From assembly GCA_963668695.2 (NCBI GenBank), contig CAXXLQ010000004.1:1760001-1824000 (forward strand): DNA of 64,000 nucleotides, given 5' to 3'. Below the pieces are notes generated by a model that was not told the DNA's origin, did no database searches, and worked only from the letters and a program-made list of their open reading frames with translations. The stretch comes from Vicinamibacteria bacterium. Its GTDB lineage: Bacteria; Acidobacteriota; Vicinamibacteria; Marinacidobacterales; Marinacidobacteraceae. Positions within the stretch are counted from its first letter, which is position 1. Each line of letters opens with the position of its first letter. Positions 16,717 through 54,801 of this stretch are shown piece by piece. The translations under genes and the position numbers were made by a program.

Positions 16717-19110
16717 TTAACCCGGGACCCAGTACCAGGTGAGCTTCCCGAGGAGCTCCCGGTAGGCCGGCTCCGAGCTTTCCATCCCGAAGGGCCGGCG
16801 CTCGTTGTAGACCACGTAGACGTCGCTGCCCGGGCGGTAGTTCCAGCGGAGCTGGACGTTCCCGGAGAAGTTGTTGTCGTCGTCGTTCCATTGCAGGAGC
16901 CCGCGCACGAAGGCGTCCGGCGACAGCGCCAGCAGCCCCCGCAGCACCACCAGGTTCGTGTTGAAGTCGCCGTTCTCCTGGGGGAGACGGATCTCGCTCC
17001 GCGAGTAGTTCACCTGGAGCCGCACCCGGGGATGCGGCTTGACCGCCACCCCCGGCGAGTACACCCGGAGCCGGCCGTCGAAGAACCCGTTGTTCAGGTG
17101 GAACATCTGGAACGAGAGCGGGCGGCTCTCCGAGGTGTTGACCATCCCCATGAAGTCGTTCGTCGTGTACTGGCCTTCGTCGATTTCCACCCCGTCGCGA
17201 AGTTCGAACGACTCGCTCAGGCCTTCGGTATTCCGCGAGACCGCGAAGAAGAGATGGCTGCCGTCGTTGAAGAGGAAGAACGGCCCGAAGCCGATGTTCT
17301 CGGTCTGGATCGAGCCGTCGGGCTCGGTGATGCGAATCAGGTTGGGGCCCATGAAGATCTGCCGGATCCCGAAGCGGCCGATCCGCGGGCTCCACATCCC
17401 GTCCACCCGGAGCTTCTTCACCCCGGTCCGCGGCACGAACCCCATCTCCGAACGGAATCCCTCGCCGATGTCGGTGTAGTTCGTGAAGAGGTTCCAGCGG
17501 TCGTTCCCCACCTGCCCGTTCAGCCCGAACGCCGAGTCGCGCCCCTCGACGCCCGGCGTCGAACTCCGGGCCGCGAATCCGCCAATCGTCAGCGCCCCGG
17601 TAGGCGCCCAGGAGAAGTCGGCGGCGCCCAGCCGGTGCGAGTCGCCGCCGGCCTCGGTCCGATCGAGCGCCATTACGCCCACCGAACTCCGCCCCAGCAC
17701 GTCGCGCCGGAGGCGCACCGCCGAGAACCCGGTGGCGGGCGACACCCCGTCGAACTCCTGCTGGCGGATGTGGAAGGCGCCGACATCGGTCCGCCCCAGC
17801 TTGCCGGTGATGCGCGCCCCGCCGACGATGGGAATGATCTCGCCGTCTTCGGAGAGCCCGATCCGGCGGCTGAAGAACAGGAAGGTCTCCGGCGGTTCGA
17901 ACGGCCGGCTGGCTTCGCCCACCTGGAAGAGCCCGGCGTTTTCGAGGAAGAACTCGCGCTGCTCGGGGAAGAAGAGCTCGAAGCGGGTCAGGTTCACCTG
18001 CTGCTCGTCGGCCTCCACCTGCGCGAAGTCGGTGTTCACCGTCACGTCCAGGTTCAGGTTGGACCCGAGCCCCACCTTGGCGTCGAGCCCGAGGTCGGCG
18101 GTCCCCGCGCGGTCCTCGCCCTCGCCGGTGACCCCGGCAACTCCGAAGGGCTTCAGCTTGATGCGGCCGCCGGGGTCGGCGCTGTCGATCCCGCGGAGCA
18201 CCCCGTAGGCGGAGATCCGCCACATCGCGTTGAATCCCCAGTCGTTGTCGATCGCGGCCCAGTAGCTCTGCTCGCGGCTGCGCGCCACCTGGCGGCCGAA
18301 GTTGACCCCGAACTCGGGGGTGCCGCTCGGGAACCGGAGCGTCTCGAAGGGGATGATCATCTCGGTGACCCAGCCGCCCTCGGTCCGCCGCGATCCCACC
18401 CGCCAGACGCCGTCCCACTCGAGGTTGAGCACCGCGCCCTCGCCCTGGATGAGTCCGTCCTGGCGGGTCCCCACCGCGTTGGTGGTGAAGAAGAAGGCGC
18501 TCCGGTGGTCGTGGTAGGTGTCGAGCACCACCATGAAGTTGTCGTCGCTCTCCAGGTTGGCGTCGCGCCGGTATTCGCGGGCGACCACCGCGTCCGGGTC
18601 GTCGTCCTCGAGGCGGGCGCCGATCAGCAGCGCGTCCCGCGTGTAGGCGACGAGCACCTCGGTGGCGAAGGTGGGCTCCGCACCCTCCACCGGTTCGCTC
18701 TGGATGAATCCGCCGGCCACCGCCGCGTTCGCCCAGACTTCCTCGTCAAGCCAGCCGTCGGCCACCGGCAGCTCGTCCACGAGCGGCGCGTCGAGCACCC
18801 GTTCGTGCCCCTCCTGGGCGGAGGCGTGGCCCGCCGCGAGGACGAGTGCTAGCAGTCCGCAGACCAAGTGGCGTGAGCGCCGAGAGCGGCCAGTCTCCCG
18901 GTGGGGGCGAGGCGCCCGGCTGACAAGGCGCGCGAGGGAGGAATACCGTGTGTCTTTCGACCGAAGCGCAACGATGAGCGAAGCGTAGCGCCGTTTCTCC
19001 CGGTGGGGGGGCGGTTCAGGCGGGATGGATCGCCGCTCGAACGCCGCGCGACTTGGTCCGCGGGCTGCTCGGATTGCTACTCCTCGAGCGCGAACTCGAA
19101 AACCATCCAT
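16717..19110 (-). CDS. CBM9-like/DUF5916 outer-membrane protein; N-terminus interrupted in frame by a MITE-like element
   Basis: DGWLDEEVW, WDGVW, NTDFAQVEAD, FFPEQREFFLEN, FFSRRIG; start codon uncertain. Confidence 0.8.
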   Translation of the reverse strand: MDGFRVRARGVAIRAARGPSRAAFERRSIPPEPPPHREKRRYASLIVALRSKDTRYSSLARLVSRAPRPHRETGRSRRSRHLVCGLLALVLAAGHASAQEGHERVLDAPLVDELPVADGWLDEEVWANAAVAGGFIQSEPVEGAEPTFATEVLVAYTRDALLIGARLEDDDPDAVVAREYRRDANLESDDNFMVVLDTYHDHRSAFFFTTNAVGTRQDGLIQGEGAVLNLEWDGVWRVGSRRTEGGWVTEMIIPFETLRFPSGTPEFGVNFGRQVARSREQSYWAAIDNDWGFNAMWRISAYGVLRGIDSADPGGRIKLKPFGVAGVTGEGEDRAGTADLGLDAKVGLGSNLNLDVTVNTDFAQVEADEQQVNLTRFELFFPEQREFFLENAGLFQVGEASRPFEPPETFLFFSRRIGLSEDGEIIPIVGGARITGKLGRTDVGAFHIRQQEFDGVSPATGFSAVRLRRDVLGRSSVGVMALDRTEAGGDSHRLGAADFSWAPTGALTIGGFAARSSTPGVEGRDSAFGLNGQVGNDRWNLFTNYTDIGEGFRSEMGFVPRTGVKKLRVDGMWSPRIGRFGIRQIFMGPNLIRITEPDGSIQTENIGFGPFFLFNDGSHLFFAVSRNTEGLSESFELRDGVEIDEGQYTTNDFMGMVNTSESRPLSFQMFHLNNGFFDGRLRVYSPGVAVKPHPRVRLQVNYSRSEIRLPQENGDFNTNLVVLRGLLALSPDAFVRGLLQWNDDDNNFSGNVQLRWNYRPGSDVYVVYNERRPFGMESSEPAYRELLGKLTWYWVPG
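18852..19068 (+). mobile_element. MITE-like structured element, copy 1 (in frame in the DUF5916 gene)
   Basis: Ends gcagtccgcagaccaagt / acttggtccgcgggctgc; core GACAAGGCGCGCGAGGGAGGAATAC...CGACCGAAGCGCAACG. Confidence 0.8.
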
Positions 19111-19760
19111 GAGACGGAAACGAAGGCGACCGCGGACAGGATCAGGAAGCGCGCCGCGTCCCAGACCGGCTCGCCCGCCATCGCCGCCCGCATGCCGGAC
19201 ACGCCGGCGATCAGCAGCGGCGCCGAGAGGGGGAAGAGCAGCAGCGGCAGCAGCACCTCGCGCACCGGGGTCGCGGCGCAGATGGCTGCCACCGTGACGC
19301 CGAGAGCCATGAATCCGAGAGAGCCGCACAGAAGAATCGCACCGAGGGTTAGCAGACCATTTACGGTCTGGCCCCCCAAAAGGTTCGCCCGGAAAAAGAA
19401 CTGGTAGAGCGCCACCACCGGGATCTCGACCGCGAGCAGGAGGAGCGTCCCCGAGCCCAGCTTCCCGAAGTAGATGGCCGACCGGTCCACGGGTCCGAGC
19501 ATCAGCCCGTGGATCGCCATCGATTCGGTTTCGGGGGCGAAGCTGCGGTAGAGGCCGAGGGTGCCGGCGAAGAGGAAGGCGGCCTGGAGCACCCCGGGGG
19601 CAAGGTCGTGCCGGTCCGCCGAATCGAGCCCGATGGCGAAGTGCATGACGAGCAGCACGAGCGCCGCGAAGAGGAACATGGCCGGCAGCCGTTCGCGCGA
19701 GCGGGCTTCGCTCAGCAGGTCCTTCCCCGCGATGGCCATCCCCGCGCGGAACGTGGTCAC
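19077..19760 (-). CDS. ccmB: Heme exporter protein CcmB
   Basis: KDLLSEARS, IYFGK, REVLLPLLLFPL; 6 TM helices; follows ccmA. Confidence 0.9.
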   Translation of the reverse strand: MTTFRAGMAIAGKDLLSEARSRERLPAMFLFAALVLLVMHFAIGLDSADRHDLAPGVLQAAFLFAGTLGLYRSFAPETESMAIHGLMLGPVDRSAIYFGKLGSGTLLLLAVEIPVVALYQFFFRANLLGGQTVNGLLTLGAILLCGSLGFMALGVTVAAICAATPVREVLLPLLLFPLSAPLLIAGVSGMRAAMAGEPVWDAARFLILSAVAFVSVSWMVFEFALEE

Positions 19761-20536
19761 GAGGCGGACCTCTTGTTTCGGCCGGCGGCCTGGGTGTTTC
19801 GGCCGGCGGCTTGGGTATTCCGCCCCTCGGCTGCGGCGTCCCGGCCGGCGGCCGCGGCGTCGTAGGTCCGCCGGACGGCCTGCGGGTCGGCCGCCGGATC
19901 ATCGAGGACCACCCGGCCGCGCTGGAGGACCAGCGCCCGGTCGGCGAGCGCGACCGCCCGGCCCACGCCGTGGGTGGCGAAGAGCACCGCCGCCCCGCGC
20001 TCGCGGGCCGCGCGCACCATCCCGGTGAGCCGGTCCCGCGCCGCGCCGTCGAGCCCGGCGAACGGTTCGTCGAGAAGCAGCAGGTCCGGTTCGTGGAGAA
20101 GGGCGCGGGCGAGCGTCGCCCGCTGCGCCGTCCCCCGCGAGAGGTGGCGCGCCGGGACGTCGGCGACCGCGGCGAGGCCGTGCGTCTCCAGCAGGGCGCC
20201 GATGTCCGTCCGGGCCCCGTGGAGCCGGCGGTGGAAGCGCAGGTTCTCCCGGACCGTCAGTTCCGGGTAGAGGAGCGACTGGTGGGAGGCGAACCCGATC
20301 CAGCCGCGCGCCGCCGGGACCGCGTGCTTCAGTTCCACCCCGCGGTAGCGGAGGGTTCCCGACGACGGGCGTGCCAGGGTGGCGGCCATCCGGATCAGCG
20401 TGGTCTTCCCCGCGCCGTTCGGCCCGAGGAGAGCGACGATCTCCCCGGCGGCCACCGTGAGGCTCACCTCGTCCACCACCGGGACCTCCCGGTAGCGCCG
20501 GGTGACGCGGTCGGCCTCGAAGAGGGGGGCGGACAC
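19757..20536 (-). CDS. ccmA: Heme ABC exporter ATP-binding protein CcmA
   Basis: GPNGAGKTT, LSRG signature, LLLDEPF; ccm context. Confidence 0.88.
   Translation of the reverse strand: MSAPLFEADRVTRRYREVPVVDEVSLTVAAGEIVALLGPNGAGKTTLIRMAATLARPSSGTLRYRGVELKHAVPAARGWIGFASHQSLLYPELTVRENLRFHRRLHGARTDIGALLETHGLAAVADVPARHLSRGTAQRATLARALLHEPDLLLLDEPFAGLDGAARDRLTGMVRAARERGAAVLFATHGVGRAVALADRALVLQRGRVVLDDPAADPQAVRRTYDAAAAGRDAAAEGRNTQAAGRNTQAAGRNKRSAS
19776..19830. repeat. 21-bp tandem repeat in the ccmA C-terminus (AAGRNTQ)
   Basis: gtttcggccggcggc(c/t)tgggt x2 plus a degenerate copy. Confidence 0.7.
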
Positions 20537-20552
20537 GGCGTCTTCCGGCCTA

Positions 20553-20823
20553 GCAGCCTGTGGATAAAGTGGCGTGAGCGCCGAGAGCGGCCAGTCTCCC
20601 GGTGGGGGCGAGGCCCAGTTCTCCCGGTGGGGGTCCGGCTGACAAGGCGCGCGAGGGAGGAGCCCCTACCGGGAGAACTGGCCCGGGTGTATTTCGCCCG
20701 AAGCGCAACGATGAACGACGCGAAGCGGAGTGTTTCAGCCGGGGCCCCCACCGGGAGAACTGGGGATCGCCGCTCGCGCCCCCACCGGGAGAACTGGGCC
20801 GCGAGACTTTGTCCACAGGCTGC
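20553..20823 (+). mobile_element. MITE-like element, copy 2, with five 21-mer inserts
   Basis: TA|gcagcctgtggataaagt...actttgtccacaggctgc|TA, a TA duplication. Confidence 0.85.
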
Positions 20824-21983: not shown

Positions 21984-22369
21984 TTCTTCGTCCGTCCCGG
22001 CTTGGGTTTCGGCCGCCTGCGCGGAGTGGCGTCGGGAGTTACGTCCCCCTGCGGGGGCGATGCTGGCCGGTTCTCCCGGTGGGGGCCTGAAGACCGGCGC
22101 TCCAGTACGTCCAGTTGGGCAGTCACTTCCGCGGCTTGAACCAGCACCGCCGCCCGGCTGGCGGCGTGCTCCGCGGGCGCGATCTTCCCGGCGTCCTTCT
22201 CGAAGTCGAGTTCCGCCAGGGTGAGCAGGAGCTGGTCCCGCTTCTCCCGGAGCCGCAGCACGGTGCGGTCGGTCTCCTGGCGCGGGGCCGTCTCCGGCCC
22301 GGAGAAGACCGGCTGCAGCACGAAGGCGGTGGCGGCGGCCGCCAGCACCGCGAGCAGGACCAATGTCAC
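21980..22369 (-). CDS. CcmI-N-like small membrane protein; C-terminus contains a REP+21-mer
   Basis: N-terminal TM helix, LAELDFEKDAGKI motif. Confidence 0.65.
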   Translation of the reverse strand: MTLVLLAVLAAAATAFVLQPVFSGPETAPRQETDRTVLRLREKRDQLLLTLAELDFEKDAGKIAPAEHAASRAAVLVQAAEVTAQLDVLERRSSGPHRENRPASPPQGDVTPDATPRRRPKPKPGRTKK

Positions 22370-22387
22370 CCGGAGGTCACGCGGTTA

Positions 22388-22676
22388 GCAGCCTGTGGAC
22401 AGAGTCGCGTGAGCGCCGAGGCGGGCGAGGCGCCCGGCTGAGAAGGCGCGCGAGGGAGGAGCCCCCACCGGGAGAACTGGCCCGGGTGGTTTTCGACCGA
22501 AGCGCAACGATGAGCGCCGCAATGCGGCGCGGTTCAGCCGGGATGCATCGCCCGCCGTTTCCGGAGCGGGGCGTCAGCACCGCGGAGACCCCGGAGCGGA
22601 AGGGACGGGGGGCGGGGCTACCCGACCCCCATCCCTTCTGGCTCGGGAACTCCGCGTGACTCTGTTCACAGGTTGT
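22388..22676 (+). mobile_element. MITE-like element, copy 3, with an extra ~90-bp internal segment
   Basis: TA|gcagcctgtggacagagtc...gactctgttcacaggttgt|TA. Confidence 0.82.
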
Positions 22677-22680
22677 TAGG

Positions 22681-23223: not shown

Positions 23224-23230
23224 TGGATCA
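23170..23230. repeat. 15-bp tandem repeat at the ccmF/ccmH junction (MKPDP/MKPNP)
   Basis: ttcatcggatcaggc-type units x3-4. Confidence 0.75.
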
Positions 23231-25240: not shown

Positions 25241-25289
25241 TTGTTATCCCTGGCGCCGGCTCCGCCTCTAGCGGCTCACCGGGTGCGGG

Positions 25290-25748: not shown

Positions 25749-26010
25749 AACGAGAGGATGTTACCACCGGGACTGCCGGTCCACCGGATGGCCCCGCGGG
25801 CAGGGAACGCCGGTCCACTGAGGCGGCGCCGCAGGCTGGGAACGCCCGCCTTCAGACCGGCACCGCGGCCCGCAGGGCACGGCGGTGAATCGGAGCGCCG
25901 GTCTTCAGGCCCCCACCGGGAGAACTGGCCAGCATCGCGGCCAAAGACCGCGAAACTCCCATCGTCGCTCCCCGCATGGCACGGAGGTGAATCGGAACGG
26001 CCGGTCTGAA

Positions 26011-28200
26011 CCCGACTTCGCCAAAACGTGACGTTCGGTTTCCGTAAGTCGCAGACAATACGGCCATTACAAAACAGGGTGCCAGCAGACTGGCACTACG
26101 TTTGTGTGTTTGGGTCCGGCCTTCGGCGGGTGCGCCGGCGGTAGTGGTGGGGCTCGACGCCCACCGCCCGCGCGATCTGGGCCACCTGCGCCGGGGGGCG
26201 GACATCCTGCCGATTCACGATCAGCCGTCCGTTCGTCTCCCGGATCGTGGTGGTCATCCGCACCCACGGCCGTAGCCGGGTGCGGATCGAGTCCCACGAC
26301 AGGGGGATGGCGCGCGCCTTCAGCCGGGTGCGGATCAGGTGCACCGCGTGATAGGCGAGCACCGCCAGGAAGAGGTGCGCCGCGATCCGGCGGTGCTTCA
26401 CATGCCAGATCGGCCGCAGCCCCAGCTCCGTCTTGAGCGACCGGAACGTCGCCTCGATCTCCGTCAGCCGCCAGTAGGTCCGCACGATCTGCTCTGTGCC
26501 CCAGCCCGTCTGGCTTGACCGCAGCAGATACGAACCCGCCCCCGCGTCCCGCGCCCCATAGCGCTTCGTCCGGCTCCACACCACCGCCGTCGCGTTGGGT
26601 CCCGCACCCTTCTCCACCTCCACCTCATACTGCGCCGACACCTGCCGATACCGCTCCCGGAGCCGGCCCACCGTGTCCATCACCTTCTCATACTGCTTCC
26701 GGCGGTGCGGGATCGTCAGCCCCTCGTGGAGGTGCCGCAGCGCCGTCTCATACTGCTCCCGGTGCCGCCCCAGCATCGCCTCCTCGGTGGCCCGCTTCCC
26801 CTCGCTCACCGCAACCAGCCGCACCTCCCCCTCGTCCTCCTCCAGCCTCCACGCCAAAACCTCCTGCTGCGCGCTCGTCGTCAATGTGACGTCCGCCTCC
26901 CCCTCCGGCGGCGCCGGCCGCGTCTCCCGACTCACGCAGATCCAGCCGTAGCCCCGCTCCCGAAGCCAGGCGATGTTCTCCTCCGTCGCGATCCCCGCGT
27001 CCAGGATCACCGTCGGCTTCTTCCCACCGTGCCCGCCCCCGGCATCCACCTCCGCCTCGAACCGCCCCAACGCCGCCGCCAGCGTCGCCGGCTCCGACAC
27101 GTCTCCCGCCAGAACCTCGCAACCCCGCGGGAACCCCGCCCCCTCCAGCGCCAGCGCCAGCGTCACCAGCGGGTGCTTCCGCCCCTCCTTCGAGCGCCCG
27201 AACCGCAACAGCTCCTTGTCCGAACGCCCCGTATACCAAGTGTTCGTCAGATCGTAGAAAACAATCGTGTCCGGCAACTCCAACAGCTTCCGCTCCCGGC
27301 GGAACAGCCCCGCCTGCAACTCCCGCCGCAGCCGCCACAACACGTCTCCCGTCCGGTAGAGCTTCTGGAGCGACAGCGCCTTCCCCCGATCCAGGTCCAA
27401 AAGCTCCAGCGCCGCGCTGTCCTCCCGCAACCAGCGCAACGCCTCCCGTTCGCTGCTCGGATGCAGCATCTTCGCCACCACCAGCGCGGTGGCGATCCGC
27501 GCATCCCGGCCCCGCACCCCCTGCGCGTGCAGCAAGTCCCGAAAGCCCAGCTCCGCAAGCCCCGCCAGGCAGACGCGCTCCCCGCCTGCCGAACGGGAGT
27601 CCTCATGCTCCAGACTGTCGAGGTCCACCGTGGCCACCGCACCATCCCGGCCCGGCGTCTCCGCCCGCGGCGGCGCCAGCCCCTGGGTGCGCAGCCGGCG
27701 CACCAGGTCCTCGGCCGCCGCCTCGATGTCCGGGGGCACCGCCAACATCGGCCGTTGGCCCGCCAGCAGCACCTCGGTCACCAGAACCACATCCCGCCAC
27801 TGCTCCTTCGGAACCGGATAGTCCACGCCCAGGTTCAACAGAGACTCCTGGCGGACCTTGTCGCCGATTCGCACCGAGCGGGACAAGCGATAACTGTGCG
27901 CGGGTTCGCCGTGCTTGGTGTGGGTCTTGGTGGCGCGGATGTACACGGCGGGGCGGCGAGAGAGGCTGGGAGGGATGCCGGCGGATGGCAGAGCCAAAGT
28001 CAAGGCCTGAAACGCCATTTACAAAAGAACCTGGCACTACACGCCTCTCCCCCTCCTCCAAACCGCCGTCCGCCCACCGAGAGCCCGTTTTTGGCCCGTT
28101 TCGGACCTCCAATGGCCACTCTGGGCCCACTTTGGAGGCCGATTCGAACTTCCCTCAGCTCTGCATGCCGGCCCGACCCTCTAAAAGTGGCGAAGTCGGG
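26011..28200 (-). mobile_element. IS1634-family insertion sequence inserted in a REP hairpin
   Basis: TIRs CCCGACTTCGCCA / TGGCGAAGTCGGG; REP halves on both sides. Confidence 0.85.
26096..27946 (-). CDS. IS1634-family DDE transposase
   Basis: FYDLTNTWY, FGRSKE, ILDAGI, IEATFRSLKTELGLRPIWH; GTG start inferred. Confidence 0.9.
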   Translation of the reverse strand: MYIRATKTHTKHGEPAHSYRLSRSVRIGDKVRQESLLNLGVDYPVPKEQWRDVVLVTEVLLAGQRPMLAVPPDIEAAAEDLVRRLRTQGLAPPRAETPGRDGAVATVDLDSLEHEDSRSAGGERVCLAGLAELGFRDLLHAQGVRGRDARIATALVVAKMLHPSSEREALRWLREDSAALELLDLDRGKALSLQKLYRTGDVLWRLRRELQAGLFRRERKLLELPDTIVFYDLTNTWYTGRSDKELLRFGRSKEGRKHPLVTLALALEGAGFPRGCEVLAGDVSEPATLAAALGRFEAEVDAGGGHGGKKPTVILDAGIATEENIAWLRERGYGWICVSRETRPAPPEGEADVTLTTSAQQEVLAWRLEEDEGEVRLVAVSEGKRATEEAMLGRHREQYETALRHLHEGLTIPHRRKQYEKVMDTVGRLRERYRQVSAQYEVEVEKGAGPNATAVVWSRTKRYGARDAGAGSYLLRSSQTGWGTEQIVRTYWRLTEIEATFRSLKTELGLRPIWHVKHRRIAAHLFLAVLAYHAVHLIRTRLKARAIPLSWDSIRTRLRPWVRMTTTIRETNGRLIVNRQDVRPPAQVAQIARAVGVEPHHYRRRTRRRPDPNTQT

Positions 28201-36192: not shown

Positions 36193-37323
36193 GTGATGGA
36201 GCGGAACCCCACCCGCCGGGTCGAAATCGGGAACGTCGCCGTGGGCGGCGGCAATCCGATCGTCGTCCAGAGCATGTGCGCCACCCACACCCAGAACGTG
36301 GAGGCCACCTCCGCCCAGGCCGAGGCGCTCCGCGAGGCCGGCGCCGGGATCGTGCGCATCGCGGTGGACAGCAAGAAGGACGTCGACGCGCTCGCCGAAG
36401 TCCGGAAGCGCACGACCGCCAATCTGGCCGTGGACCTCCAGGAAAGCTACCGGCTCGCCGAGAGCGTCGCCCCGCACGTGGACAAGATCCGCTACAACCC
36501 GGGCCACCTCTGGCACCACGAGACCTCGCTGCCGGTGGCGGACAAGGTGAAGTACCTCGCCGGCGTCGCCGGGGAGCACGACTGCGCCATCCGCGTCGGG
36601 GTCAACTGCGGCTCGATGGATCCGGCGCACCAGGGCCGCTTCCACGGCGACCCGGTGGGCGCGATGGTGGCCTCGGCCGCCGAGCACTGCGAGCTGCTCG
36701 ACTCGTTCGGGTTCACCCGCTACGTGGTCTCGCTCAAGGACTCCGACCCCGCGAACGTGATCGAGGGGAACCGCCGCTTCGCGGCCGAACGGCCCGACGT
36801 GCCGCTCCACCTCGGCGTCACCGAGGCCGGCATGCCCCCCGAGGGCATCATCAAGACCCGGATCGCCTTCGAGCAGCTCGTCAGCCGCGGCATCGGCGAC
36901 ACCGTCCGCGTGTCGCTCACCCTGCCGAACCCCCGGAAACCGGAAGAAGTGAAGGCCGGCCACGAGATCCTCACCGACATCGCGAACGGCCGTTTCCGCT
37001 CGGTCCCGGAGTTCCCGAAGGACAAGCTGAACATCATCTCCTGCCCGTCCTGCTCACGGGTCGAGAACGAGAAGTTCATCGAGCTGGCGGAGGATGTCCG
37101 GGAGATGACCCGCTACGCCGAGCGTCACGCGATCACCATCGCCGTCATGGGCTGCCGGGTGAACGGCCCGGGAGAAACGGACGACGCCGACCTCGGGCTC
37201 TGGTGCGGCCCGGCGTTCGTGAACCTGAAGAAGGGCCCGCAGTCGCTCGGCGCCTACCCCTACGACCAGATCCTCCCCCGGCTGAAGGCCGAGGTGGACC
37301 GCCTGATCGCCGACCGGGTCTGA
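36193..37323 (+). CDS. ispG: (E)-4-hydroxy-3-methylbut-2-enyl-diphosphate synthase
   Basis: [45 protein letters not shown]. Confidence 0.95.
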
Positions 37324-37513
37324 GCGGTCGATAGACAGAGTCACGCGGCCCAGTCCTCCCGGTGGGGGCTCGGCCAGCGATGCATCCCGGCTGACCGCTT
37401 CGCTCTGCGTTGCGATCCGGTCGGAATACGGTCTGTATGCCTTCCGAATCGCGCCTTGTCAGCCGGGCGCCTCCCCGACCTCGGCGCTCACATCACTCTG
37501 TCTACCGGCCGCT
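37323..37513 (-). mobile_element. MITE-like element, copy 4, exactly between two convergent stop codons
   Basis: Ends agcggtcgatagacagagt / actctgtctaccggccgct; shared core sequence. Confidence 0.75.
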
Positions 37514-38445: not shown

Positions 38446-38450
38446 GGTCC

Positions 38451-38616: not shown

Positions 38617-38804
38617 GTGATTGGGTTTGGGAGTTTCGCGGCCCTGCGGGCCGCGATGCCGGTCTGAAGACCGGCGCTCCTACGCTCCTGCGCCATCCCC
38701 GGTTAGTCCAGCGCGAGGCGGGTGATTGGGTTTGGGAGTTTCGCCTCCCTGCGGTCTGCGATGCTGGCCAGTTCTCCCGGTGGGGGCCTGAAGACCGGCG
38801 CTCC
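38617..38804. repeat. Tandem pair of REP units, first empty, second containing the 21-mer
   Basis: gggtgattgggtttgggagtttcgc...gatgc(c/t)gg[21-mer]ctgaagaccggcgctcc x2. Confidence 0.85.
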
Positions 38805-38846
38805 GATGGTCCCAGGGGCTTGCGTGCTGTTCCTTACAATCAGCGC

Positions 38847-39677: not shown

Positions 39678-39849
39678 ACAGCCCGTGAATCAAGTAGCCC
39701 GGCATTCGACCGGCGATGCATCCCGGCTGAACCGCTGCGCTCTGCGTTGCAAATCAGTCGGAATACACTCGGTATGCCTCCCGATTTGCGTCTTGTCAGC
39801 CGGGCGCCTCGCCACTCTCGGTGCTCGACCTGCTCTATCCACGGACTGT
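39678..39849 (-). mobile_element. MITE-like element, copy 5, inserted in the 5' end of pxpB-C
   Basis: Ends acagcccgtgaatcaag / ctctatccacggactgt|TA; carries no 21-mer. Confidence 0.8.
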
Positions 39850-43047: not shown

Positions 43048-43248
43048 GGCAACCCATGGACAAAGTCACGCGGCGTTCGAGCGGCGATGCATCCCGGCTG
43101 AAACACTCCGCTGCGCGTCGCTCATCGTTGCGCTTCGGTCGAAATACACCAGGTATTCCTCCCTCGCGCGCCTTGTCAGCCGGGCGCCTCGCCCCCACCG
43201 GGAGAACTGGCGCTCTCGGCGCTCACGTCACCTTGTCCATAGGCTGCC
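43048..43248 (-). mobile_element. MITE-like element, copy 6
   Basis: Ends ggcaacccatggacaaagt / accttgtccataggctgcc. Confidence 0.82.
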
Positions 43249-43297
43249 AGGCAATCGATCCGCTCATGAAGCAGCGAAAGGACCCCTGCCAGTCGTG

Positions 43298-46826: not shown

Positions 46827-47115
46827 TCAGGGAGACCGCGTACCGCCGAGCGCGCAGAAGCGCGGGGACACCCAGTGCTAGGAGCGCCGGTCTTCAGGCC
46901 CCCACCGGGAGAACTGGCCAGCATCGCCCGCGTAGCGGGCGAAACTCCCATCGCCGAGCGCGCAGAACGGGGACGGCTAGAAGCGCCGACCTCCAGGTCG
47001 GCACAGCCCGCCGCAGGCGGGCGGAGTCGCGTATCGCTGAATTGCGTCGAGCGCGGCCGAGCACGGGACCGCCGACCTCCAGTCCCCCATTGTTGACCTT
47101 GTTGATTCACTCGGA

Positions 47116-47232
47116 ATGGGCAGCGGCGATCTATTCAGGTATCTTCCGTTCTTCTATCTTCTGTTCTTCGGGGGCCTTATCTTGCCGCTGCTTCTGACTA
47201 TCGTCCGCTGTTCTCGAAGGGCGGGCGCCTGA
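47116..47232 (+). CDS. Possible 38-aa single-TM peptide
   Basis: Hand translation MGSGDLFRYLPFFYLLFFGGLILPLLLTIVRCSRRAGA; ends 11 bp before the next gene. Confidence 0.3.
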   Translation: MGSGDLFRYLPFFYLLFFGGLILPLLLTIVRCSRRAGA

Positions 47233-47243
47233 AGGTACTGAGC

Positions 47244-49742: not shown

Positions 49743-51166
49743 ACTTCATCACCGGAACACACCTCTCGCGCCGCACCTTCCTGCGGGGGGCCGGCGCCAG
49801 CGTGGCGCTGCCCCTGCTCGACGCGATGGTTCCCGCCGGACGGCTGTGGGCCAACCCGAGGAGGGCGGCGGGATTTACGCGGCTCGTCTGCATCGAGGAG
49901 TCGATGGGCGTGGCCGGCTCGAGCGACTGGGGCGATGTCCGCCACCTCTTCGCGCCGGCGACGACCGGACGCGGCTTCGAGCTGGTCGCGGACAGCCAGC
50001 TCAAACCGCTGGAGGCGTTCCGCGAGTACATGACGATCGTGAGCAACACGGACTGTCGATCGGCGGAAGCGTTTCGGGCGGAGGAGATCGGCGGCGACCA
50101 CGACCGATCGACGGCGGTGTTCCTGACCCAGGCCCATCCGAAGCAGACGCAGGGGTCCGACCTCTTCCTCGGCACTTCGCTCGACCAGCTGCATGCGCAG
50201 CGCTTCGGGCGGGAGACGGTGCTCCCGTCGCTCGAACTCTGCATCGAGGGCATCGATCGCGGCGGCGGCTGCGCGTACAACTACCACTGCGCGTACACGA
50301 CCTCGCTCGCGTGGGCCTCGCCCAACCAGCCGCTTCCGGCGATCCGCGAGCCGCGCGTCGTGTTCGAGCGGCTGTTCGGCGCCGGGGACACGGCCGAGGA
50401 CCGAGCGGCGCGGCGCCGCACGGACCGCAGCATGATCGACTGGATCGCGACCGAGGTCACTCGGCTCAAGAGAACTCTGGGCGCGGCGGACCGGGTCGCG
50501 CTGGACGAGTACGTCGAGCACATCCGCGAGATCGAACGGAGGATCCAGCTCGTCGAGGCGCGCAATACGAGCGGGGAGGAACGGGAGATGCCGGAGGCCC
50601 CCTCCGGGGTCCCGGATTCCTTCGAGGAGCACATGCAGTTGATGTTCGACCTGCAACTGCTCGCGCTGCAGACCGACCTCACGCGCGTCATCACCTTCAA
50701 GACGGGCTTCGATCAGTCGAACCGGACGTTCCCCGACTGCGGGACGACGAAGTCCGTCCACGGGGCCTCGCACCACGGCAACGTCCCCGAGGACATCATG
50801 GACTTCAACCGGATCAACACCTACCGGCTCGGCCAGCTCGCCTACTTCCTCGAGAAGATGCGCGACACGGTGGAAGGCGACGCCTCGCTCCTCGACAAGA
50901 CGGCGATCATCTGGGGCTCTCCGATGGCGGACGGGAACCTCCACAACCACCGGCGAGCGCCGCTGCTCGTTCTGGGCGGGGCGAACGGGGCGCTGGAGGG
51001 CGGCCTCCATCTGCGGGCTCCGGACGGGACCCCAATGGCGAACGCCTTCGTGAGCCTGATGCGGAAGATCGGACACCCGGAGATGGCCACTTTCGGCGAC
51101 AGCGACGGCGTGTTCCCGCTCGACCTCACGGGCGAAGCGGCCTCCGGCGGGAGCGGCTCGGCATGA
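49739..51166 (+). CDS. DUF1552 domain protein (Tat-exported)
   Basis: LSRRTFLRGAG..ALPLLDAM, PRVVFERLFG, HGASHH, GNLHNH. Confidence 0.9.
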   Translation: MNFITGTHLSRRTFLRGAGASVALPLLDAMVPAGRLWANPRRAAGFTRLVCIEESMGVAGSSDWGDVRHLFAPATTGRGFELVADSQLKPLEAFREYMTIVSNTDCRSAEAFRAEEIGGDHDRSTAVFLTQAHPKQTQGSDLFLGTSLDQLHAQRFGRETVLPSLELCIEGIDRGGGCAYNYHCAYTTSLAWASPNQPLPAIREPRVVFERLFGAGDTAEDRAARRRTDRSMIDWIATEVTRLKRTLGAADRVALDEYVEHIREIERRIQLVEARNTSGEEREMPEAPSGVPDSFEEHMQLMFDLQLLALQTDLTRVITFKTGFDQSNRTFPDCGTTKSVHGASHHGNVPEDIMDFNRINTYRLGQLAYFLEKMRDTVEGDASLLDKTAIIWGSPMADGNLHNHRRAPLLVLGGANGALEGGLHLRAPDGTPMANAFVSLMRKIGHPEMATFGDSDGVFPLDLTGEAASGGSGSA

Positions 51167-53349
51167 GGGGCGCCGCGGTGTCGCTCAACAGCCTGTGGAT
51201 GAAGTGGCGTGAGCGCCGAGGCGGGCGAGGCGCCCGGCTGACAAGGCGCATGAGGGAGGAGCCCCCACCGGGAGAACTGGCCCGAGTGTATTTCGACCGA
51301 AATGCAACGCAGAGCGGAACGAAGTGGAGCGGTTCAGCCGGGATGCATCGCTCGCCGAGCCCCCACCGGGAGAACTGGGCCGCGTCACTTCATCTGCAGG
51401 CTGTTTTGGTCGCGGCAATCCTCCCCGCGGCCCTGGCGGCGCAGGACACGTCGCCCGGCGCGGACGAGCGGCTGCTCGCGGCCGCCCGCGACGGGCAAGT
51501 CGAAGTCGTACGGTCCCTCCTGCGGGAGGGGGCGGACGTGAACGCGGCGCGCGGCGACGGGTTGACCGCGCTGCACCTGGCCGCCGAGGGCGGGCATCGG
51601 GCCGTGGCCGATGCGCTGGTCGCGGCTGGCGCCGCGGTCGACGCCGGCACGCGCATCGGTCGCTATACGCCGCTCCAGGTGGCCGCCGAGGGCGGGCATG
51701 GCGCCGTCGTCGCGCGCCTGCTCGAAGCCGGGGCGGACCCGAACGCTCGGACGACGAACAGCGGCGTGACCGCGCTGCACCTCGCCGCCGGCGCCATCGA
51801 TGGCCGGTCGGCCGTGGCCGCGCTGCTCGACCACGGCGCGGATCCGAACGCCCGGGAGGGGTCGGCGGGGCAGACGCCCCTGATCTTCGCGGCGGTCGCG
51901 AACCGGGCCGCTGCCGTGACCGCGTTGCTCGCCGCCGACGCCGACCCCGGCATCACGACCGCCGTGGTCGACGTCCTGCCCGCTCTGGCGCTGGACCGGG
52001 AAGCCAACCGCCGCTTCCGCGACATAATCGGCGCGCCGCCGGAAACGCTCGGACCGTACGGGCCCGAGGTGGACCCGGAAGCCGAATCGCCGGGCGAGCC
52101 CAGCCCGGCCCATGTCCAGGCGGCCGTCCGCGCGCAACGCGACTTTCTCCGCTCCGGCTACGACGTCGGTGACGTGAGCCCGCACTCGCTCGGCCGCGTG
52201 GGGCCCGACTACCCGGGCGGTCCCGACCTCGTGCGCCCGCCCTACCGCGAGGTCCTCGTCGGCCGGACCGGCGCACTGACCGCGCTATTGCACGCCGCCC
52301 GCGAGGGCCATATCGAAGCCGCGACGGCCCTCGCGGGCGGCGGCGCGGACCTGGATCAGGTGAGCGCGGACGGCACCAGCCCACTCCTGATGGCGACGCT
52401 CAACGGCCAGTTCGACCTGGCGCTCGTCCTCATCGAGCGCGGAGCCGATCCCGATCTTGCCGCTTCGACGGACGGCGCCACGCCGCTCTTCGCCGTCCTC
52501 CAGACCCAGTGGGCGCCAAAGTCCAACTATCCGCAGCCGCGCGCGCAGGACTTGCAGGAGGCCGAACACCTGGACGTGCTCCGCGCGCTGCTCGAAGCCG
52601 GGGCCGATCCCAACCCCCGCCTGAACACGCACGCTTGGTACTGGGAATACGGTCTCACCAAGTTGGGGATCGACCTCACCGGGGCGACGCCGTTCTGGCG
52701 GGCCGTCTTCGCCCAGGATCTCGAGGCGATGAGACTGCTCGTCGCGCACGGAGCGGATCCCCACATTCCCACCCGCTGGCCCGAGGTCGGGATGCGGGAG
52801 CGCCGGCAGCAGGACGGCCGCCAGCAGGAGGACTCCGCGCTGCCCTGGATCCCGGAGGGGGCGCCGAACGCCTGGCCGATCCATGCCGCGGCGGGGGGCG
52901 GATATCTGGGACTGGGCGCGTTCAGCGTTCGGAACCGACCCGATCAGTTCATTCCCGCCGTGAAGTACCTGATCGAGGAACTGGGCGCGGACGTGAACCA
53001 GCGAGACTCCTGGCTCTACACCCCGATGCACTACGCGGCTTCCCGGGGCGACAACGAACTCATCGAGTACCTCGTGTCGCAGGGCGGGGACGTCACCGCG
53101 ATCACCCGCCTCGGACAGTCCACCGCCGACATGGCGCGCGGAGGCCGGGCCGGGTTCTTCACCCGCGTCCCGTACCCGGAGACGGTCGAGTTGCTGACCA
53201 GTCTCGGCGCGACGCTCGAGTGTCTCCACACGCACTTCCTGGATACCGGAGACTTCTGCCCCGCCGCGGGCGTCAACGACCCGTGGGCGCCGGCCGCGAC
53301 GGATGAGGAGCAAAAGCGGTCCGATTCCGGGAAGACGGGGTCGCGCTGA
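51163..53349 (+). CDS. Secreted ankyrin-repeat protein; signal peptide contains an in-frame MITE-like element
   Basis: Repeated G.TALH.AA/G.TPL motifs; ATGA overlap with the DUF1552 stop. Confidence 0.88.
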   Translation: MRGAAVSLNSLWMKWRERRGGRGARLTRRMREEPPPGELARVYFDRNATQSGTKWSGSAGMHRSPSPHRENWAASLHLQAVLVAAILPAALAAQDTSPGADERLLAAARDGQVEVVRSLLREGADVNAARGDGLTALHLAAEGGHRAVADALVAAGAAVDAGTRIGRYTPLQVAAEGGHGAVVARLLEAGADPNARTTNSGVTALHLAAGAIDGRSAVAALLDHGADPNAREGSAGQTPLIFAAVANRAAAVTALLAADADPGITTAVVDVLPALALDREANRRFRDIIGAPPETLGPYGPEVDPEAESPGEPSPAHVQAAVRAQRDFLRSGYDVGDVSPHSLGRVGPDYPGGPDLVRPPYREVLVGRTGALTALLHAAREGHIEAATALAGGGADLDQVSADGTSPLLMATLNGQFDLALVLIERGADPDLAASTDGATPLFAVLQTQWAPKSNYPQPRAQDLQEAEHLDVLRALLEAGADPNPRLNTHAWYWEYGLTKLGIDLTGATPFWRAVFAQDLEAMRLLVAHGADPHIPTRWPEVGMRERRQQDGRQQEDSALPWIPEGAPNAWPIHAAAGGGYLGLGAFSVRNRPDQFIPAVKYLIEELGADVNQRDSWLYTPMHYAASRGDNELIEYLVSQGGDVTAITRLGQSTADMARGGRAGFFTRVPYPETVELLTSLGATLECLHTHFLDTGDFCPAAGVNDPWAPAATDEEQKRSDSGKTGSR
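51188..51404 (+). mobile_element. MITE-like element, copy 7 (in frame, 73 codons)
   Basis: Ends acagcctgtggatgaagt / acttcatctgcaggctgt. Confidence 0.82.
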
Positions 53350-53386
53350 CCGACGCCCGCTGACCGACACCCGCTGACCGACACCG
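53345..53386. repeat. 14-bp tandem repeat spanning the ankyrin stop codon
   Basis: gctgaccgac(g/a)cc(c/g) x3. Confidence 0.7.
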
Positions 53387-53438
53387 AGGCCCCGAGCAGC
53401 AGTTTGGAGCGCCGGCCGGGCCGATCAACGGAGAGAGC

Positions 53439-54801
53439 ATGAAGATCCAGTCGCTTTGCCTGACCTTCGGGTTCGCCGCGGCTCTAGCCGTCTCGGCGTG
53501 CGAGGACGGCGACCGCGCGGCCGTCGCAGAGATGGGGGGAGCGAACGGCGGCGTCGCTAACAGCCGGTGGCAAAACCCACGCGGCGTTCGACCGGCGATG
53601 CATCCCGGCTGAACCACTCCGCTTCGCTCCGTTCTGCGTTGCGTTTCGGTCGAAATACACTCGGTATTCCTCCCTCACGCGCCTTGTCAGCCGGGCGCCT
53701 CGCCCCCACCGGGAGAACTGGCCGGTCTCGGCGCTCACGCGGGTTTCACCACAGGCTGTTAAGGGAGGAGACGACCGCACCGGGCCCTACGATCCGGTGC
53801 CCGGCTGGTGGAAGGTCGCACCTGACCACGACAACGAGTGGGGCTGGGGGCAGGTGGCCGGCGTGGCGGTGGACCACGCGGACCGCATCATCGTCGTCAC
53901 GCGCGGCGACTGGCCCGCGGATGGCTCGGTCCCGCGCGAGGGGCGGTTGCGGCGCACGAACTTCGTTGTCGTCGCGAACGCGAACGGCGAGATCGTCGAA
54001 CAGTGGGCGCAGTGGGACTCGATCTTCACGCTCCCGCACCAGGTGTACATCAGTCCCTACGACCCCGACCGGCACGTGTGGGTGATCGACAGCGGCGGCG
54101 GCGAGGGGCACATGCAGGTCGTCAAGTTCACGAACGACGGCAGCGAGATTGTCATGCGCCTCGGAGAGCGCGACCACCCGAAGACCCGCGAAGCGGCGCG
54201 TGCACGATCCGACTGGGGACCACACACTTACGGCTGGCCATCGAAGCTGGCGTTCCTTCCTGACGGGAGCTTCCTGCTGGCGGACGGGTATTGGAACTCT
54301 CGCATCATCAAGTATTCCGAGGACGGAGAGTTCATCATGCAGTGGGGCGCGCTCGGTACCGGGCCCGGCGAGTTCGATCTCCTGCACGGACTCGCCGTGG
54401 ACGAGGATCGGGTGTACGTCGCCGACCGCCAGAACGAGCGGCTTCAGTTGTTCACGCACGACGGGGAGTTCATCGAGGAATGGCCCGACATCTTCGACCC
54501 CGTGAACATCTGGCTCGATGAGAACGGCGCCGTGTGGGTCCTGGACGCGACGCTGAACCGCGTGCTGAAGTACAACCGGGAGGGCGTCTTGCAGGACTAC
54601 TGGGGCGCATACGGAGCGGCCGGCGCCCTCGGCCGCGGCGTGTGGCCGGGAGGCCTGTCGCTCCCGCACCAGTTGGATATGGACAAGGATGGCAACGTTT
54701 ATATTGCGTCCTACAGTGGCGGCTGGATCAACAAGTTCACCCCAAAGCCGGGCGCGGACCCGGACAGACTTCTGGGTCCCCGGCTGCTCCTGGCGAACTG
54801 A
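53439..54801 (+). pseudogene. NHL-repeat (PAL-like beta-propeller) lipoprotein interrupted by a MITE-like element
   Basis: MKIQSLC...AVSAC lipoprotein leader; removing 53560-53759 plus one TA restores the ORF into KGGDDRTGPYDPVPGWWK; ADGYWNSRI, G.GPGEF...HG, VADRQN. Confidence 0.8.
53560..53759 (-). mobile_element. MITE-like element, copy 8
   Basis: TA|acagccggtggcaaaaccc...gggtttcaccacaggctgt|TA. Confidence 0.88.

What the first reader, a model, noticed from the sequence alone, without database searches (positions are those of the whole stretch)
18852..53759. MITE-like family whose ends covary within each copy, with strand-specific G.U/G.T pairing
Seen: eight copies (18852, 20553, 22388, 37323, 39678, 43048, 51188, 53560); three have a perfect TA duplication. 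The 17-20 bp ends differ between copies (gcagcctgtggataaagt, gcagtccgcagaccaagt, agcggccggtagacagagt, ggcagcctatggacaaggt) yet remain complementary within each copy. By hand count, non-Watson-Crick positions read on the same element strand are about 16 G.T versus 3 A.C. Inner stems are also present (CCCGGCTGA/TCAGCCGGG; GAATAC/GTATTT). The better-folding strand is antisense to the host transcript in 6 of 7 assignable copies. Established: a dsDNA transposase reading TIR sequence would conserve sequence, not pairing. Inference: the element acts or moves as a folded single strand (RNA or ssDNA), so it may be a mobile structured ncRNA rather than a classical MITE.
Basis: partly seen in the sequence, partly recalled or inferred. 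Interest (0 to 1): 0.82.

Follow-up and report, generated by a model that had tools for sequence, protein, structure and literature searches.

The report
Hairpin-folding mobile DNA repeat family
A 182-base mobile DNA repeat, present about 500 times in this marine Acidobacteria genome, keeps one of its two strands able to fold into a long hairpin, so it is probably recognised or moved as a folded single strand.

Summary
The eight copies belong to a 182-nt family with 490 full-length copies. The whole element folds as a rod on one strand. Over 66 pairs there are 3,018 G.T against 196 A.C cells, and 35 pairs show compensated double changes. Loops are nearly invariant. A 72-sequence set, 71 from other genomes including other phyla, confirms the covariation (0 of 500 shuffles reach it).

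Private alleles show no G.T bias (4 vs 5) and hit stems and loops alike, whereas propagated alleles are biased 906 vs 111. This points to a filter on the fold at propagation rather than in resident copies. Most window copies are absent at the same site in sister species.

It is still a TA/YTAR-targeting MITE-like DNA element. I found no reverse transcriptase, no internal promoter-like site, no Rfam match, and no IS with matching ends. The folding strand is antisense to neighbouring genes 226 to 96. A GCGNAGC DNA mini-hairpin cap and G.G/G.A tolerance favour single-stranded DNA over RNA.

The outermost "pair" is not inherited. It is rebuilt complementary at each insertion, which I cannot explain.

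Earlier agents of this scan had already found the family elsewhere in this genome; the strand-specific fold evidence is new here.

The parts
18852..19068 (+). Copy 1, end type GCAGTCCGCAGACCAAGT; carries two copies of the 19-nt module; TA on the left side only
   Evidence: CM 113 bits on +; empty site in G004
20553..20823 (+). Copy 2, with five 19-nt modules; CTA|G...C|TAG flanks
   Evidence: CM 88.8 bits; empty site in G004
22388..22676 (+). Copy 3, with an extra insert of about 100 nt before the right end (same insert class seen in 17 of 473 copies); TA both sides
   Evidence: CM 101.8 bits, partial
37324..37512 (-). Copy 4, diverged ends (GCGGCCGGTAGACAGAGT type)
   Evidence: CM 96.4 bits; site empty in G001 (CTAGCTAG) and G004 (CTAG)
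39678..39849 (-). Copy 5, without 19-nt modules and without hairpin B; shared with sister species G001
   Evidence: CM 153.3 bits
43049..43247 (-). Copy 6; absent at this site in all 15 other genomes of the genus searched
   Evidence: CM 153.8 bits; RNA-library contigs of a relative join across it (table 5)
51188..51404 (+). Copy 7; present at the same site in G004, identical except for two extra 19-nt modules there
   Evidence: CM 139.9 bits
53560..53759 (-). Copy 8; CTA|A...T|TAA flanks
   Evidence: CM 171.2 bits
5156..5261 (-). Fragment of a further copy (left 54 columns of the core profile)
   Evidence: nhmmer 5208-5261, columns 1-54; CM 19 bits; family D6

Best explanation
This is a non-autonomous, TA/YTAR-targeting transposable DNA element (core 180-182 nt). 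What it needs in cis to propagate is the fold of one particular strand, not a double-stranded terminal sequence. That strand forms a rod with a 23-bp terminal stem, two further long stems and two capped hairpins. In the rod, Watson-Crick and G.T pairs are interchangeable, while a set of purine-rich unpaired bases is fixed.

Shown:
- the fold, its covariation and its strand asymmetry;
- the filter acts on variants that have spread, not on private variants of resident copies;
- copies are gained and lost between sister species.

Inferred:
- the element is recognised, excised or copied while that strand is single-stranded and folded, most likely as DNA;
- copies whose folding strand is the non-template strand of a transcribed region are under-represented because they are either more often excised or less tolerated;
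- the enzyme is unknown. An IS630/Tc1-type DDE transposase is the only circumstantial candidate.
For: 1. Structure.
- The consensus folds at -118.8 kcal/mol.
- The folding strand is more stable in 466 of 471 copies with RNA parameters and in 470 of 471 with DNA parameters.
- RNAalifold gives -46.5 on that strand against -8.9 on the other (120 of 473 copies).

2. Covariation.
- 35 of 66 pairs have double compensated changes on a minimum spanning tree.
- In the set of 72 sequences (71 from other genomes plus one window copy), 96.7% of cells pair against 88.6% in shuffles. 27 of 45 pairs have changes on both sides against 14.2. No shuffle of 500 reaches any of the five measures. Slid controls pair at 27-42%.

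3. Asymmetry.
- 3,018 G.T vs 196 A.C cells.
- 48 pairs show a propagated WC<->G.T change, against 17 with WC<->A.C.
- The ratio is 9-30 in every transcription or replication context.

4. Level of selection.
- Alleles seen in one copy: WC>G.T 4, WC>A.C 5, at 0.47 per paired column and 0.71 per unpaired column.
- Rare alleles on the tree: 51 vs 71. Common alleles: 906 vs 111.
- The G000 orthologue of a copy shared with G001 carries three unpaired changes in the terminal stem.

5. Mobility.
- Copy 43049 is absent in 15 of 15 sister genomes.
- Of the 7 full-length window copies tested, only 39679 (in G001) and 51188 (in G004) were found filled at the same site.
- There are nested copies.
- The median nearest-neighbour distance is 6 of 178 columns.

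6. DNA rather than RNA.
- No RVT_1 match in the genome.
- No promoter-like site in three copies.
- Antisense orientation, 226 vs 96.
- Hairpin B is capped by GCGNAGC in 330 of 488 copies. Passages read in PMC13037366 describe this motif as an extraordinarily stable DNA mini-hairpin (Tm 76.5 C). They give an RNA counterpart, r(GCGAAAGC), a Tm of 39 C, and report the motif at single-strand DNA initiation sites.
- Tolerated mismatches rank G.T 3,018 > G.G 526 > G.A 350 > A.C 196 > C.T 154 > C.C 66 > A.A 28 > T.T 26. This resembles the DNA mismatch stability order as I recall it.
- The first and last bases are not inherited, yet they are complementary in 86% of TA/TA copies. Something therefore acts on the paired ends at the DNA level.
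Against: - No enzyme known to work on folded single-stranded DNA was found. Y1_Tnp gave 0 matches. Y2_Tnp gave 0 matches, but its control search rang nowhere, so that result is void. TnpB gave nothing over the cut-off. The genome is only 91.7% complete.
- TA-flanked ends and a CTAG/TTAA preference are what classical double-strand DDE transposons of the IS630/Tc1 type give (recalled).
- There is no significant orientation bias relative to replication: 256 vs 218, p=0.09. IS200/IS605-type single-strand elements show such a bias (recalled).
- G.U pairs, invariant purine-rich loops and one wobble pair kept in 71 of 72 sequences across phyla are just as typical of a functional RNA.
- Element sequence is present in metatranscriptome contigs. 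With about 500 copies per genome and no strand information, that says little.
- 'Private versus propagated' rests on 96 singleton alleles. A single mismatch may be too weak to be selected in situ.
- The orientation statistics rest on a home-made gene caller.
Confidence: 0.55

Rival explanations
1. A classical double-stranded MITE moved in trans by an IS630/Tc1-type DDE transposase. The rod-like fold is a leftover of a palindromic origin. The end variants reflect a few subfamilies, and the fold has no role in movement.
For: - TA on both sides in 199 of 488 copies, with a CTAG/TTAA-like target.
- IS630-like DDE_3 genes are present.
- They occur in all 4 genomes of the genus with 550-735 candidate copies, and in 2 of 11 with 76-192.
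- An IS630-like element sits in the CTAG between two abutting copies.
- Earlier agents of this scan filed the family next to RUP/IS630.
Against: - The IS630-like ends (TA|GTGTGGTGTCC.., TA|GTGTCGTGTCA..) do not match RCAGCCKGTGG.
- No long element with the family's ends was found in G000. The four widest left-right pairs enclose host genes.
- Covariation is found in inner stems and hairpin B, far from any terminal binding site.
- A dsDNA reader cannot give 15:1 G.T over A.C on one strand.
- The four IS630-bearing genomes are each other's closest kin, so the correlation is one event at most.
Confidence: 0.2
2. The folded entity is an RNA. The element's folding strand is transcribed, and the structured RNA of about 180 nt is what is needed, either for the element's own spread or for a host function.
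For: - The variation pattern is RNA-like: compensated stems, G.U pairs, invariant purine-rich loops, and a wobble pair kept in 71 of 72 sequences.
- Element sequence occurs in four metatranscriptome contig sets.
- The Bacillus repeat bcr1 is a precedent for a transcribed MITE-like repeat with compensatory changes (passages of PMC3184786).
Against: - No Rfam family matches at gathering score. The only weak hit is a chance-level 16.6 bits.
- No sigma-70-like promoter in three copies.
- The folding strand is antisense to flanking genes in 226 of 322 copies.
- No reverse transcriptase to return RNA to DNA.
- Resident copies are not kept folded.
- Most copies are not shared with sister species.
- The triloop cap is a DNA-type motif (PMC13037366).
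- The RNA evidence is from contigs summed over hundreds of copies, with no strand.
Confidence: 0.15
3. The complementarity is made by a mechanism, not by selection. Whenever the strand folds, at insertion or during replication, mismatches between the arms are repaired using one arm as template. A change in one arm is then either erased or copied into the other arm. G.T escapes this repair more often than A.C.
For: - The first and last bases are not inherited. They are shared 14 and 19 times in 31 closest pairs, with 15.5 expected by chance.
- Where the target looks non-palindromic, 57 copies have one inner base changed so that the ends pair, against 13 left unpaired (A.C 5, G.T 8).
- There are 136 double compensated changes on single edges of the spanning tree.
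Against: - Private stem mutations persist unrepaired in resident copies: 37 WC>mismatch singletons, and three in the shared copy 39679.
- The number of double hits expected by chance on long tree edges is not negligible by my rough estimate, which I did not compute formally.
- Known mismatch repair recognises G.T well (recalled).
- This rival still requires the same folded single strand. It competes with selection, not with folding.
Confidence: 0.1

Closest known systems
TA-duplicating bacterial MITEs linked to IS630/Tc1-mariner: RUP of Streptococcus pneumoniae, Correia elements of Neisseria, ERIC of enterobacteria (features recalled; RUP was also named by earlier agents)
   Same: Length of 100-200 bp, terminal inverted repeats, TA at both sides, hundreds of intergenic copies, hairpin potential, and no coding capacity.
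   Different: - The whole length is a covarying rod with a 15:1 strand-specific wobble excess and invariant loops.
- The ends vary freely as long as they pair.
- The terminal base pair is rebuilt at each insertion.
- No IS with the same ends is present.
- The family crosses phyla.
REPINs moved by RAYT (HUH Y1) transposases (PMC3116915, passages read)
   Same: [quoted passage not shown] A single-stranded intermediate is proposed for them.
   Different: - No Y1_Tnp/RAYT gene in this genome.
- No REP doublet architecture.
- TA/YTAR flanks that look like a target duplication.
- 182 nt with several stems and conserved loops.
Bacillus cereus group repeat bcr1 (as described in PMC3184786, passages read)
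   Same: A MITE-like repeat of about 155 bp with direct repeats at its sides and compensatory changes that keep a structure. Copy distribution is not conserved between strains.
   Different: - bcr1 is reported as transcribed, with a cruciform-like two-hairpin RNA and 5-bp direct repeats.
- Here there is no sign of own transcription, the orientation is antisense, and the evidence points to the DNA level.
Integron attC sites and other recombination sites read as folded single-stranded DNA (recalled)
   Same: Structure is conserved rather than sequence, one strand is the active one, and unpaired bases are conserved.
   Different: These are not gene-cassette ends. No link with an integrase was tested. 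Here the structure is the whole mobile unit and sits at TA sites.
IS5-group insertion sequences (YTAR target, 4-bp duplication; recalled)
   Same: The four bases at either side read YTAR and are identical in 82 of 167 clean copies. An IS4/IS5-like element in this genome is flanked by CTAG on both sides.
   Different: That IS has unrelated ends (GCCCCGATACTGTTCAC). Half of the four-base flanks are not identical, and they differ in a patterned way.

Membership tests
MITE (non-autonomous inverted-repeat transposon) | Short, non-coding, many copies | tested here: met
   The core is 182 nt (89 of 111 insert-free copies are exactly 182). There are 490 full-length copies. At 182 nt it cannot hold a transposase gene (inference from length).
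MITE (non-autonomous inverted-repeat transposon) | Terminal inverted repeats | tested here: met
   A 23-bp terminal stem, with the outer 10 nt conserved as RCAGCCKGTGG.
MITE (non-autonomous inverted-repeat transposon) | Target-site duplication | tested here: inconclusive
   TA lies on both sides in 199 of 488 copies. Four-base flanks are identical in 82 of 167 clean copies. A direct repeat of at least 3 nt is present in about 145 of 167 (my sum). One clean empty site shows a TGA duplication. The length of the duplication is not settled.
MITE (non-autonomous inverted-repeat transposon) | Insertion polymorphism | tested here: met
   Copy 43049 is absent in 15 of 15 sister genomes. Five further window copies have empty sites in G001 or G004, and three copies of the relatives are empty in G000.
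MITE (non-autonomous inverted-repeat transposon) | A parent autonomous IS with the same ends | tested here: not met
   None was found in G000. Other genomes could not be scanned for this (one search gave an error).
IS630/Tc1-mariner-derived MITE | Ends match those of a resident IS630-family element | tested here: not met
   The IS630-like ends in L004, L005 and L006 differ from the family's ends.
IS630/Tc1-mariner-derived MITE | Strict TA duplication | tested here: inconclusive
   See the duplication row above. The bases next to TA behave as target-derived.
REPIN/RAYT system | RAYT (Y1 HUH) gene in the genome | tested here: not met
   PF01797 gave 0 matches, while the control rang in 6 of 14 genomes. 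Genome completeness is 91.7%.
Any Rfam RNA family | Match at gathering score | tested here: not met
   0 matches in the 64-kb window. The only weak hit on one copy is 16.6 bits, E=0.3, to an unrelated family.
IS200/IS605-type single-strand elements (PATE) | Orientation tied to the replication direction, and a TnpA or TnpB gene present | tested here: not met
   256 vs 218, p=0.09. No Y1_Tnp. TnpB is below the cut-off.

The most novel reading that the evidence does not exclude
A transposition pathway not yet described. A TA/YTAR-targeting element is recognised and moved as a folded single DNA strand, without any HUH enzyme in the genome. Its terminal base pair is rebuilt at every insertion by a repair step that reads the two ends as paired. 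The element has spread across phyla among marine and sponge-associated bacteria.
Probability: 0.25. Interest if true: 0.85.

Novelty: new variant of a known kind. Interest (0 to 1): 0.62.

Why it matters
Bacterial MITEs such as Correia, RUP and ERIC have been known for decades, and for most of them nobody knows what moves them or why they fold.

This family offers about 500 young copies per genome, related genomes with and without bursts, and diverged relatives in other phyla. That is enough variation to read the rules of propagation straight from sequence. Pairs may be Watson-Crick or G.T on one strand only. Loops are fixed. Resident copies are free to decay.

This separates 'needed to move' from 'useful to the host', a question left open for structured repeats in general. 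If the single-strand reading is right, it extends the idea of structure-read mobile DNA (REPINs, attC sites) to TA-targeting elements. It also gives a concrete assay: move the wobble pairs to the other strand.

The family also inserts exactly on stop codons and restores them. That explains how it can fill 2-3% of a compact genome.

Tried and rejected
- **Local mutation bias** as the cause of the G.T excess. Rejected: the ratio is alike in all transcription and replication contexts. Unpaired columns show no C>T or A>G excess. Private alleles are unbiased.
- **Cruciform (both strands)** as the selected form. Rejected by inference: it cannot give a strand asymmetry.
- **Autonomous partner.**
  - The four widest left-end/right-end pairs in G000 enclose ordinary genes: redoxin, NYN, RibD, lumazine-binding, LigT.
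  - Motif matches beside the DDE_Tnp_1 locus L008 are chance.
  - One IS630 locus of G008 gave no clear ends.
- **Viral or plasmid carriers.** One IMG/VR contig holds the 18-mer, but the profile finds no element there. There is no match in 72,556 plasmids.
- **RNA evidence.** Only Logan contigs were available. Element bins have summed depths of 86-1,494 against 0-70 for most flanking bins. These sums pool hundreds of copies and several organisms and carry no strand, so they show neither expression nor its absence.
- **Hammerhead or another ribozyme** suggested by CUGA/GAAA motifs: no Rfam support.
- **Similarity of the IS630-like end to the family's end** (shared TGTGGTG...CCCGC, offset by 6 nt). 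I judged this coincidence.
- **Literature.** 'Marinacidobacterium' gave 0 papers. MITE + Acidobacteria + sponge + inverted repeat gave 0 papers.

Full report
**What is there**

The window is G000:C4:1760001-1824000 of a 4.10-Mb, 67% G+C assembly of four contigs.
- They fall into shared families in the repeat search and align over their whole length.
- A covariance model built from other genomes finds each on one strand at 89-171 bits. The opposite strand reaches at most 24 bits.
- A ninth, truncated copy lies at 5156-5261.

A profile from the eight copies finds 904 hits in the genome, 490 of them full length. Copies without inserts define a core of 182 nt: 111 of 488 are insert-free, and 89 of those are exactly 182 nt. 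Full-length copies alone make up roughly 0.1 Mb, by my arithmetic.

Length variation comes mainly from a 19-nt module, CCAGTTCTCCCGGTGGGGG. It sits at four fixed places, each in a fixed orientation.

**Whose genome**

An exact 18-mer of the core occurs in records titled Candidatus Marinacidobacterium, Vicinamibacteria/Vicinamibacterales and Acidobacteria MAGs, several from sponge-type bins.
- The family is in 15 of 15 genomes of the genus and in 2 of 3 other genera of the family. The tally of 31 genomes includes G027, which is flagged unpublished. No claim here rests on it.
- Diverged full-length copies also occur in Bryobacterales and Solibacteraceae MAGs and in a Gammaproteobacteria MAG chromosome.
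- Partial copies occur in Rariloculaceae and Thermodesulfobacteriota MAGs.
- These were found through the 18-mer, so conservation of that stretch in them is by construction.

**The fold**

The consensus folds into one long rod at -118.8 kcal/mol with RNA parameters. It has:
- a 23-bp terminal stem;
- two further stems (GCCGGCGA/TCGCCGG and GCGCCCGGCTGA/TCAGCCGGG);
- hairpin A (GAATAC/GTATTT);
- hairpin B.

The strand I call + is the window + strand for copies 18852, 20553, 22388 and 51188. It is the more stable strand in 466 of 471 copies with RNA parameters and in 470 of 471 with DNA parameters. RNAalifold gives -46.5 on that strand against -8.9 on the other.

**Covariation**

In the 488 own copies, the 66 pairs hold 26,662 Watson-Crick, 3,018 G.T, 196 A.C and 1,150 other cells.
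- The predicted partner is the column of highest mutual information in 18 of 32 tests with 62 alternatives each. The signal is therefore not just subfamily structure.
- I aligned 71 copies from other genomes plus one window copy. RNAalifold predicts 45 pairs, of which 27 have both sides changed.
- The pair-count tool gives 96.7% paired cells against 88.6% in shuffles. It finds 248 doubly changed cells against 75.8. None of 500 shuffles reaches any of the five measures. Slid controls pair at 27-42%.
- In that set I count 255 G.U and 34 A.C cells from the table.
- Hairpin B alone shows GCGCCGC/GCGGCGC, GCGCCTC/GAGGCGC, GCCCCGC/GCGGGGC and GGGCCGC/GCGGCCC.

**Not a mutation bias**
- The G.T:A.C ratio is 14.6 for copies antisense to their neighbours and 22.3 for sense copies. 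It is 30 between convergent genes and 8.8 between divergent genes. It is 15.9 and 15.2 for the two replication orientations.
- Unpaired columns are purine-rich (18 A, 15 G, 4 C, 2 T among those with a clear consensus) and most are about 97-100% invariant. They show no excess of C>T (6 on 4 sites) over G>A (158 on 15 sites).
- Standard pairs make up 95.7% of cells on the + strand and 86.6% on the other.

**Where selection acts**

Alleles seen in a single copy should mostly be mutations that arose after insertion.
- They fall on paired and unpaired columns alike (0.47 and 0.71 per column). They give 4 WC>G.T, 5 WC>A.C and 37 WC>other mismatch.
- On a minimum spanning tree of the 488 copies, rare states give 51 WC<->G.T against 71 WC<->A.C. 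Common states give 906 against 111.
- 48 pairs show a common G.T change against 17 with a common A.C change. 35 pairs show a double compensated change.
- Three orthologous pairs point the same way.
  - Copy 39679 of G000 differs from its G001 orthologue by three changes in the terminal stem. All three unpair the G000 copy.
  - The G004/G008 pair has swapped mismatches.
  - The G000/G004 pair is identical apart from two 19-nt modules.
- My reading is that resident copies drift and only lineages that keep the fold go on spreading. The caveats are that singletons are few (96) and that one mismatch is a small lesion.

**Mobility and target**
- The element at 43049 is missing from the same site in all 15 other genomes of the genus. 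The two flank pieces lie 0-56 nt apart.
- Of 7 full-length window copies compared with 80-kb syntenic stretches of G001, G004 and G008, only 39679 (in G001) and 51188 (in G004) were found occupied. Several sites are empty, and several flanks could not be placed.
- Flanks read Y-TA-R[CAGCC...GGCTG]Y-TA-R. TA lies on both sides in 199 of 488 copies.
- In 110 of 488 copies, the TA plus the next base is exactly the stop codon of a predicted gene: 59 on one side and 51 on the other. No other offset within 6 nt exceeds 5.
- 56-61 copies are nested at one place inside another copy and share their flanks.

**The outermost pair**

The first and last bases (A..T or G..C) are complementary in 86% of TA/TA copies, but they are not inherited.
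- Among 167 TA/TA copies with unique flanks, the 31 closest pairs share them 14 and 19 times, with 15.5 expected by chance.
- Internal polymorphic columns are shared in 95-98 of 97-98 comparisons.
- These bases follow the target. The four-base flanks are identical in 82 of 167 copies (TTAA 39, CTAG 30, TTAG 8, CTAA 5).
- Where the target looks non-palindromic, one of the two inner bases is changed so that they pair in 57 copies, against 13 left as they were.
- I cannot derive this from ordinary gap repair after a staggered cut. It suggests a step that reads the two ends as paired.

**Orientation**

Between co-oriented genes, the + strand is antisense to them in 226 of 322 copies (p=3e-13). With respect to replication the split is 256 to 218 (p=0.09). 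Copies sit a median of 14-29 nt after the upstream gene. Gene calls are my own, made by codon-usage scoring, and cover 83% of C4.

**What could move it**

Searches of G000:
- IS630-type DDE_3: 4 matches in 3 loci.
- DDE_Tnp_1: 7 matches.
- One IS110-type match.
- No Y1_Tnp.
- No Y2_Tnp, but the control did not ring, so this is void.
- No TnpB over the cut-off.
- No reverse transcriptase.

None of the IS ends matches the family's ends. DDE_3 genes are present in the four genomes of the genus with 550-735 candidate copies (G000, G001, G004, G008), and in 2 of the 11 with 76-192. Those four are close kin, so this is a hint only.

**DNA or RNA**

For DNA:
- The filter acts at propagation and there is no reverse transcriptase.
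- No promoter-like or terminator-like site lies within the three copies scanned.
- Orientation is antisense.
- The terminal pair is rebuilt at the DNA level.
- Hairpin B is closed by C-(G/A)NA-G. The heptamer GCGNAGC is present in 330 of 488 copies.
- Passages of PMC13037366 describe GCGNAGC as an extraordinarily stable DNA mini-hairpin with Tm 76.5 C. The RNA counterpart cited there, r(GCGAAAGC), has Tm 39 C. The motif is reported at single-strand initiation sites of phage G4, at ssiA and at the N4 promoter.
- G.G (526) and G.A (350) are the next most tolerated mismatches. As I recall, this fits the DNA order of mismatch stability.

For RNA:
- The overall pattern looks like that of a functional RNA.
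- Element sequence occurs in RNA-library contigs, though without strand information and pooled over all copies.

**Known relatives of the idea**
- Compensatory changes in hairpin repeats are on record for REPINs (PMC3116915, passages).
- They are also on record for bcr1 and some Borrelia repeats (PMC3184786, passages).
- ISY100 of the IS630 family binds its double-stranded ends through helix-turn-helix motifs. I saw only the start of the abstract in a search listing (PMC2170065).
- I found nothing in print on this family.
- Two earlier agents of this scan described the same family elsewhere in this genome as a TA-inserting hairpin MITE.

**Verdict**

The reading 'acts as a folded single strand' is supported. 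The reading 'a structured ncRNA and not a MITE' is not supported.

The best explanation is a TA/YTAR-targeting non-autonomous DNA element whose propagation requires one strand to fold, probably as DNA. The enzyme is unknown.

Noticed in passing
window 10244-10310, 22066-22132, 25892-25967, 38767-38833, 46881-46956, 55541-55697, 60431-60497, 63154-63220, and inside the MITE copies: A 19-nt module, CCAGTTCTCCCGGTGGGGG, occurs 1,467 times in the genome (up to 2 mismatches). 241 occurrences lie outside hits of the MITE profile, and 223 of those are intergenic. In the MITE it sits at four unpaired junctions in fixed orientation, often in tandem. It is gained or lost between orthologous copies of sister species. 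Outside the MITE it forms the loop of another hairpin repeat family. It behaves like an independent mini-module.
   Followed up: partly
genome-wide; in the window for example 18849-18852: 110 of 488 copies lie exactly on a predicted stop codon. The TA plus the adjoining A or G restores TAA or TAG for genes arriving from either side, so insertion does not lengthen the protein.
   Followed up: yes
L005 (G000:C4:666125-669565), about 925-2070: An IS630-like element with ends TA|GTGTGGTGTCC(C/T)G is inserted in the CTAG formed where two MITE ends abut. The same IS type is present about 12 times in sister genome G001.
   Followed up: partly
G000:C4:1268607-1269092, 1081136-1081608 and about 56-61 further sites: MITE copies are nested at one fixed place (about column 131) of another copy, with flanks GTGA/TTGG. 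Some are nested three deep. The composite seems to have been amplified as a unit.
   Followed up: partly
window 22560-22650 (insert in copy 22388): A further G+C-rich insert of 70-100 nt (GAGACCCCGGAGCGG...) sits before the right end in 17 of 473 copies. This is another module of unknown nature.
   Followed up: no
window 51188-51404 versus L142:14445-14696 (G004): This copy and its 12-nt flanks are identical between G000 and G004 apart from two 19-nt modules. A neighbouring 1.7-kb stretch of the two genomes is only 93% identical. Recent exchange or conversion is possible.
   Followed up: no
window 26351-27193 (- strand): A weak DDE_Tnp_1 match (26.5 bits, E=6.5e-6) lies in a long open frame of 640 aa inside the window. 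A similar one lies at G000:C4:3128564-3129406. I did not examine them.
   Followed up: no
window 37300-37330 versus G001 and G004: Where G000 carries copy 37324-37512, G004 reads CTAG and G001 reads CTAGCTAG. This looks like an excision footprint, or a retained duplication, in G001.
   Followed up: partly
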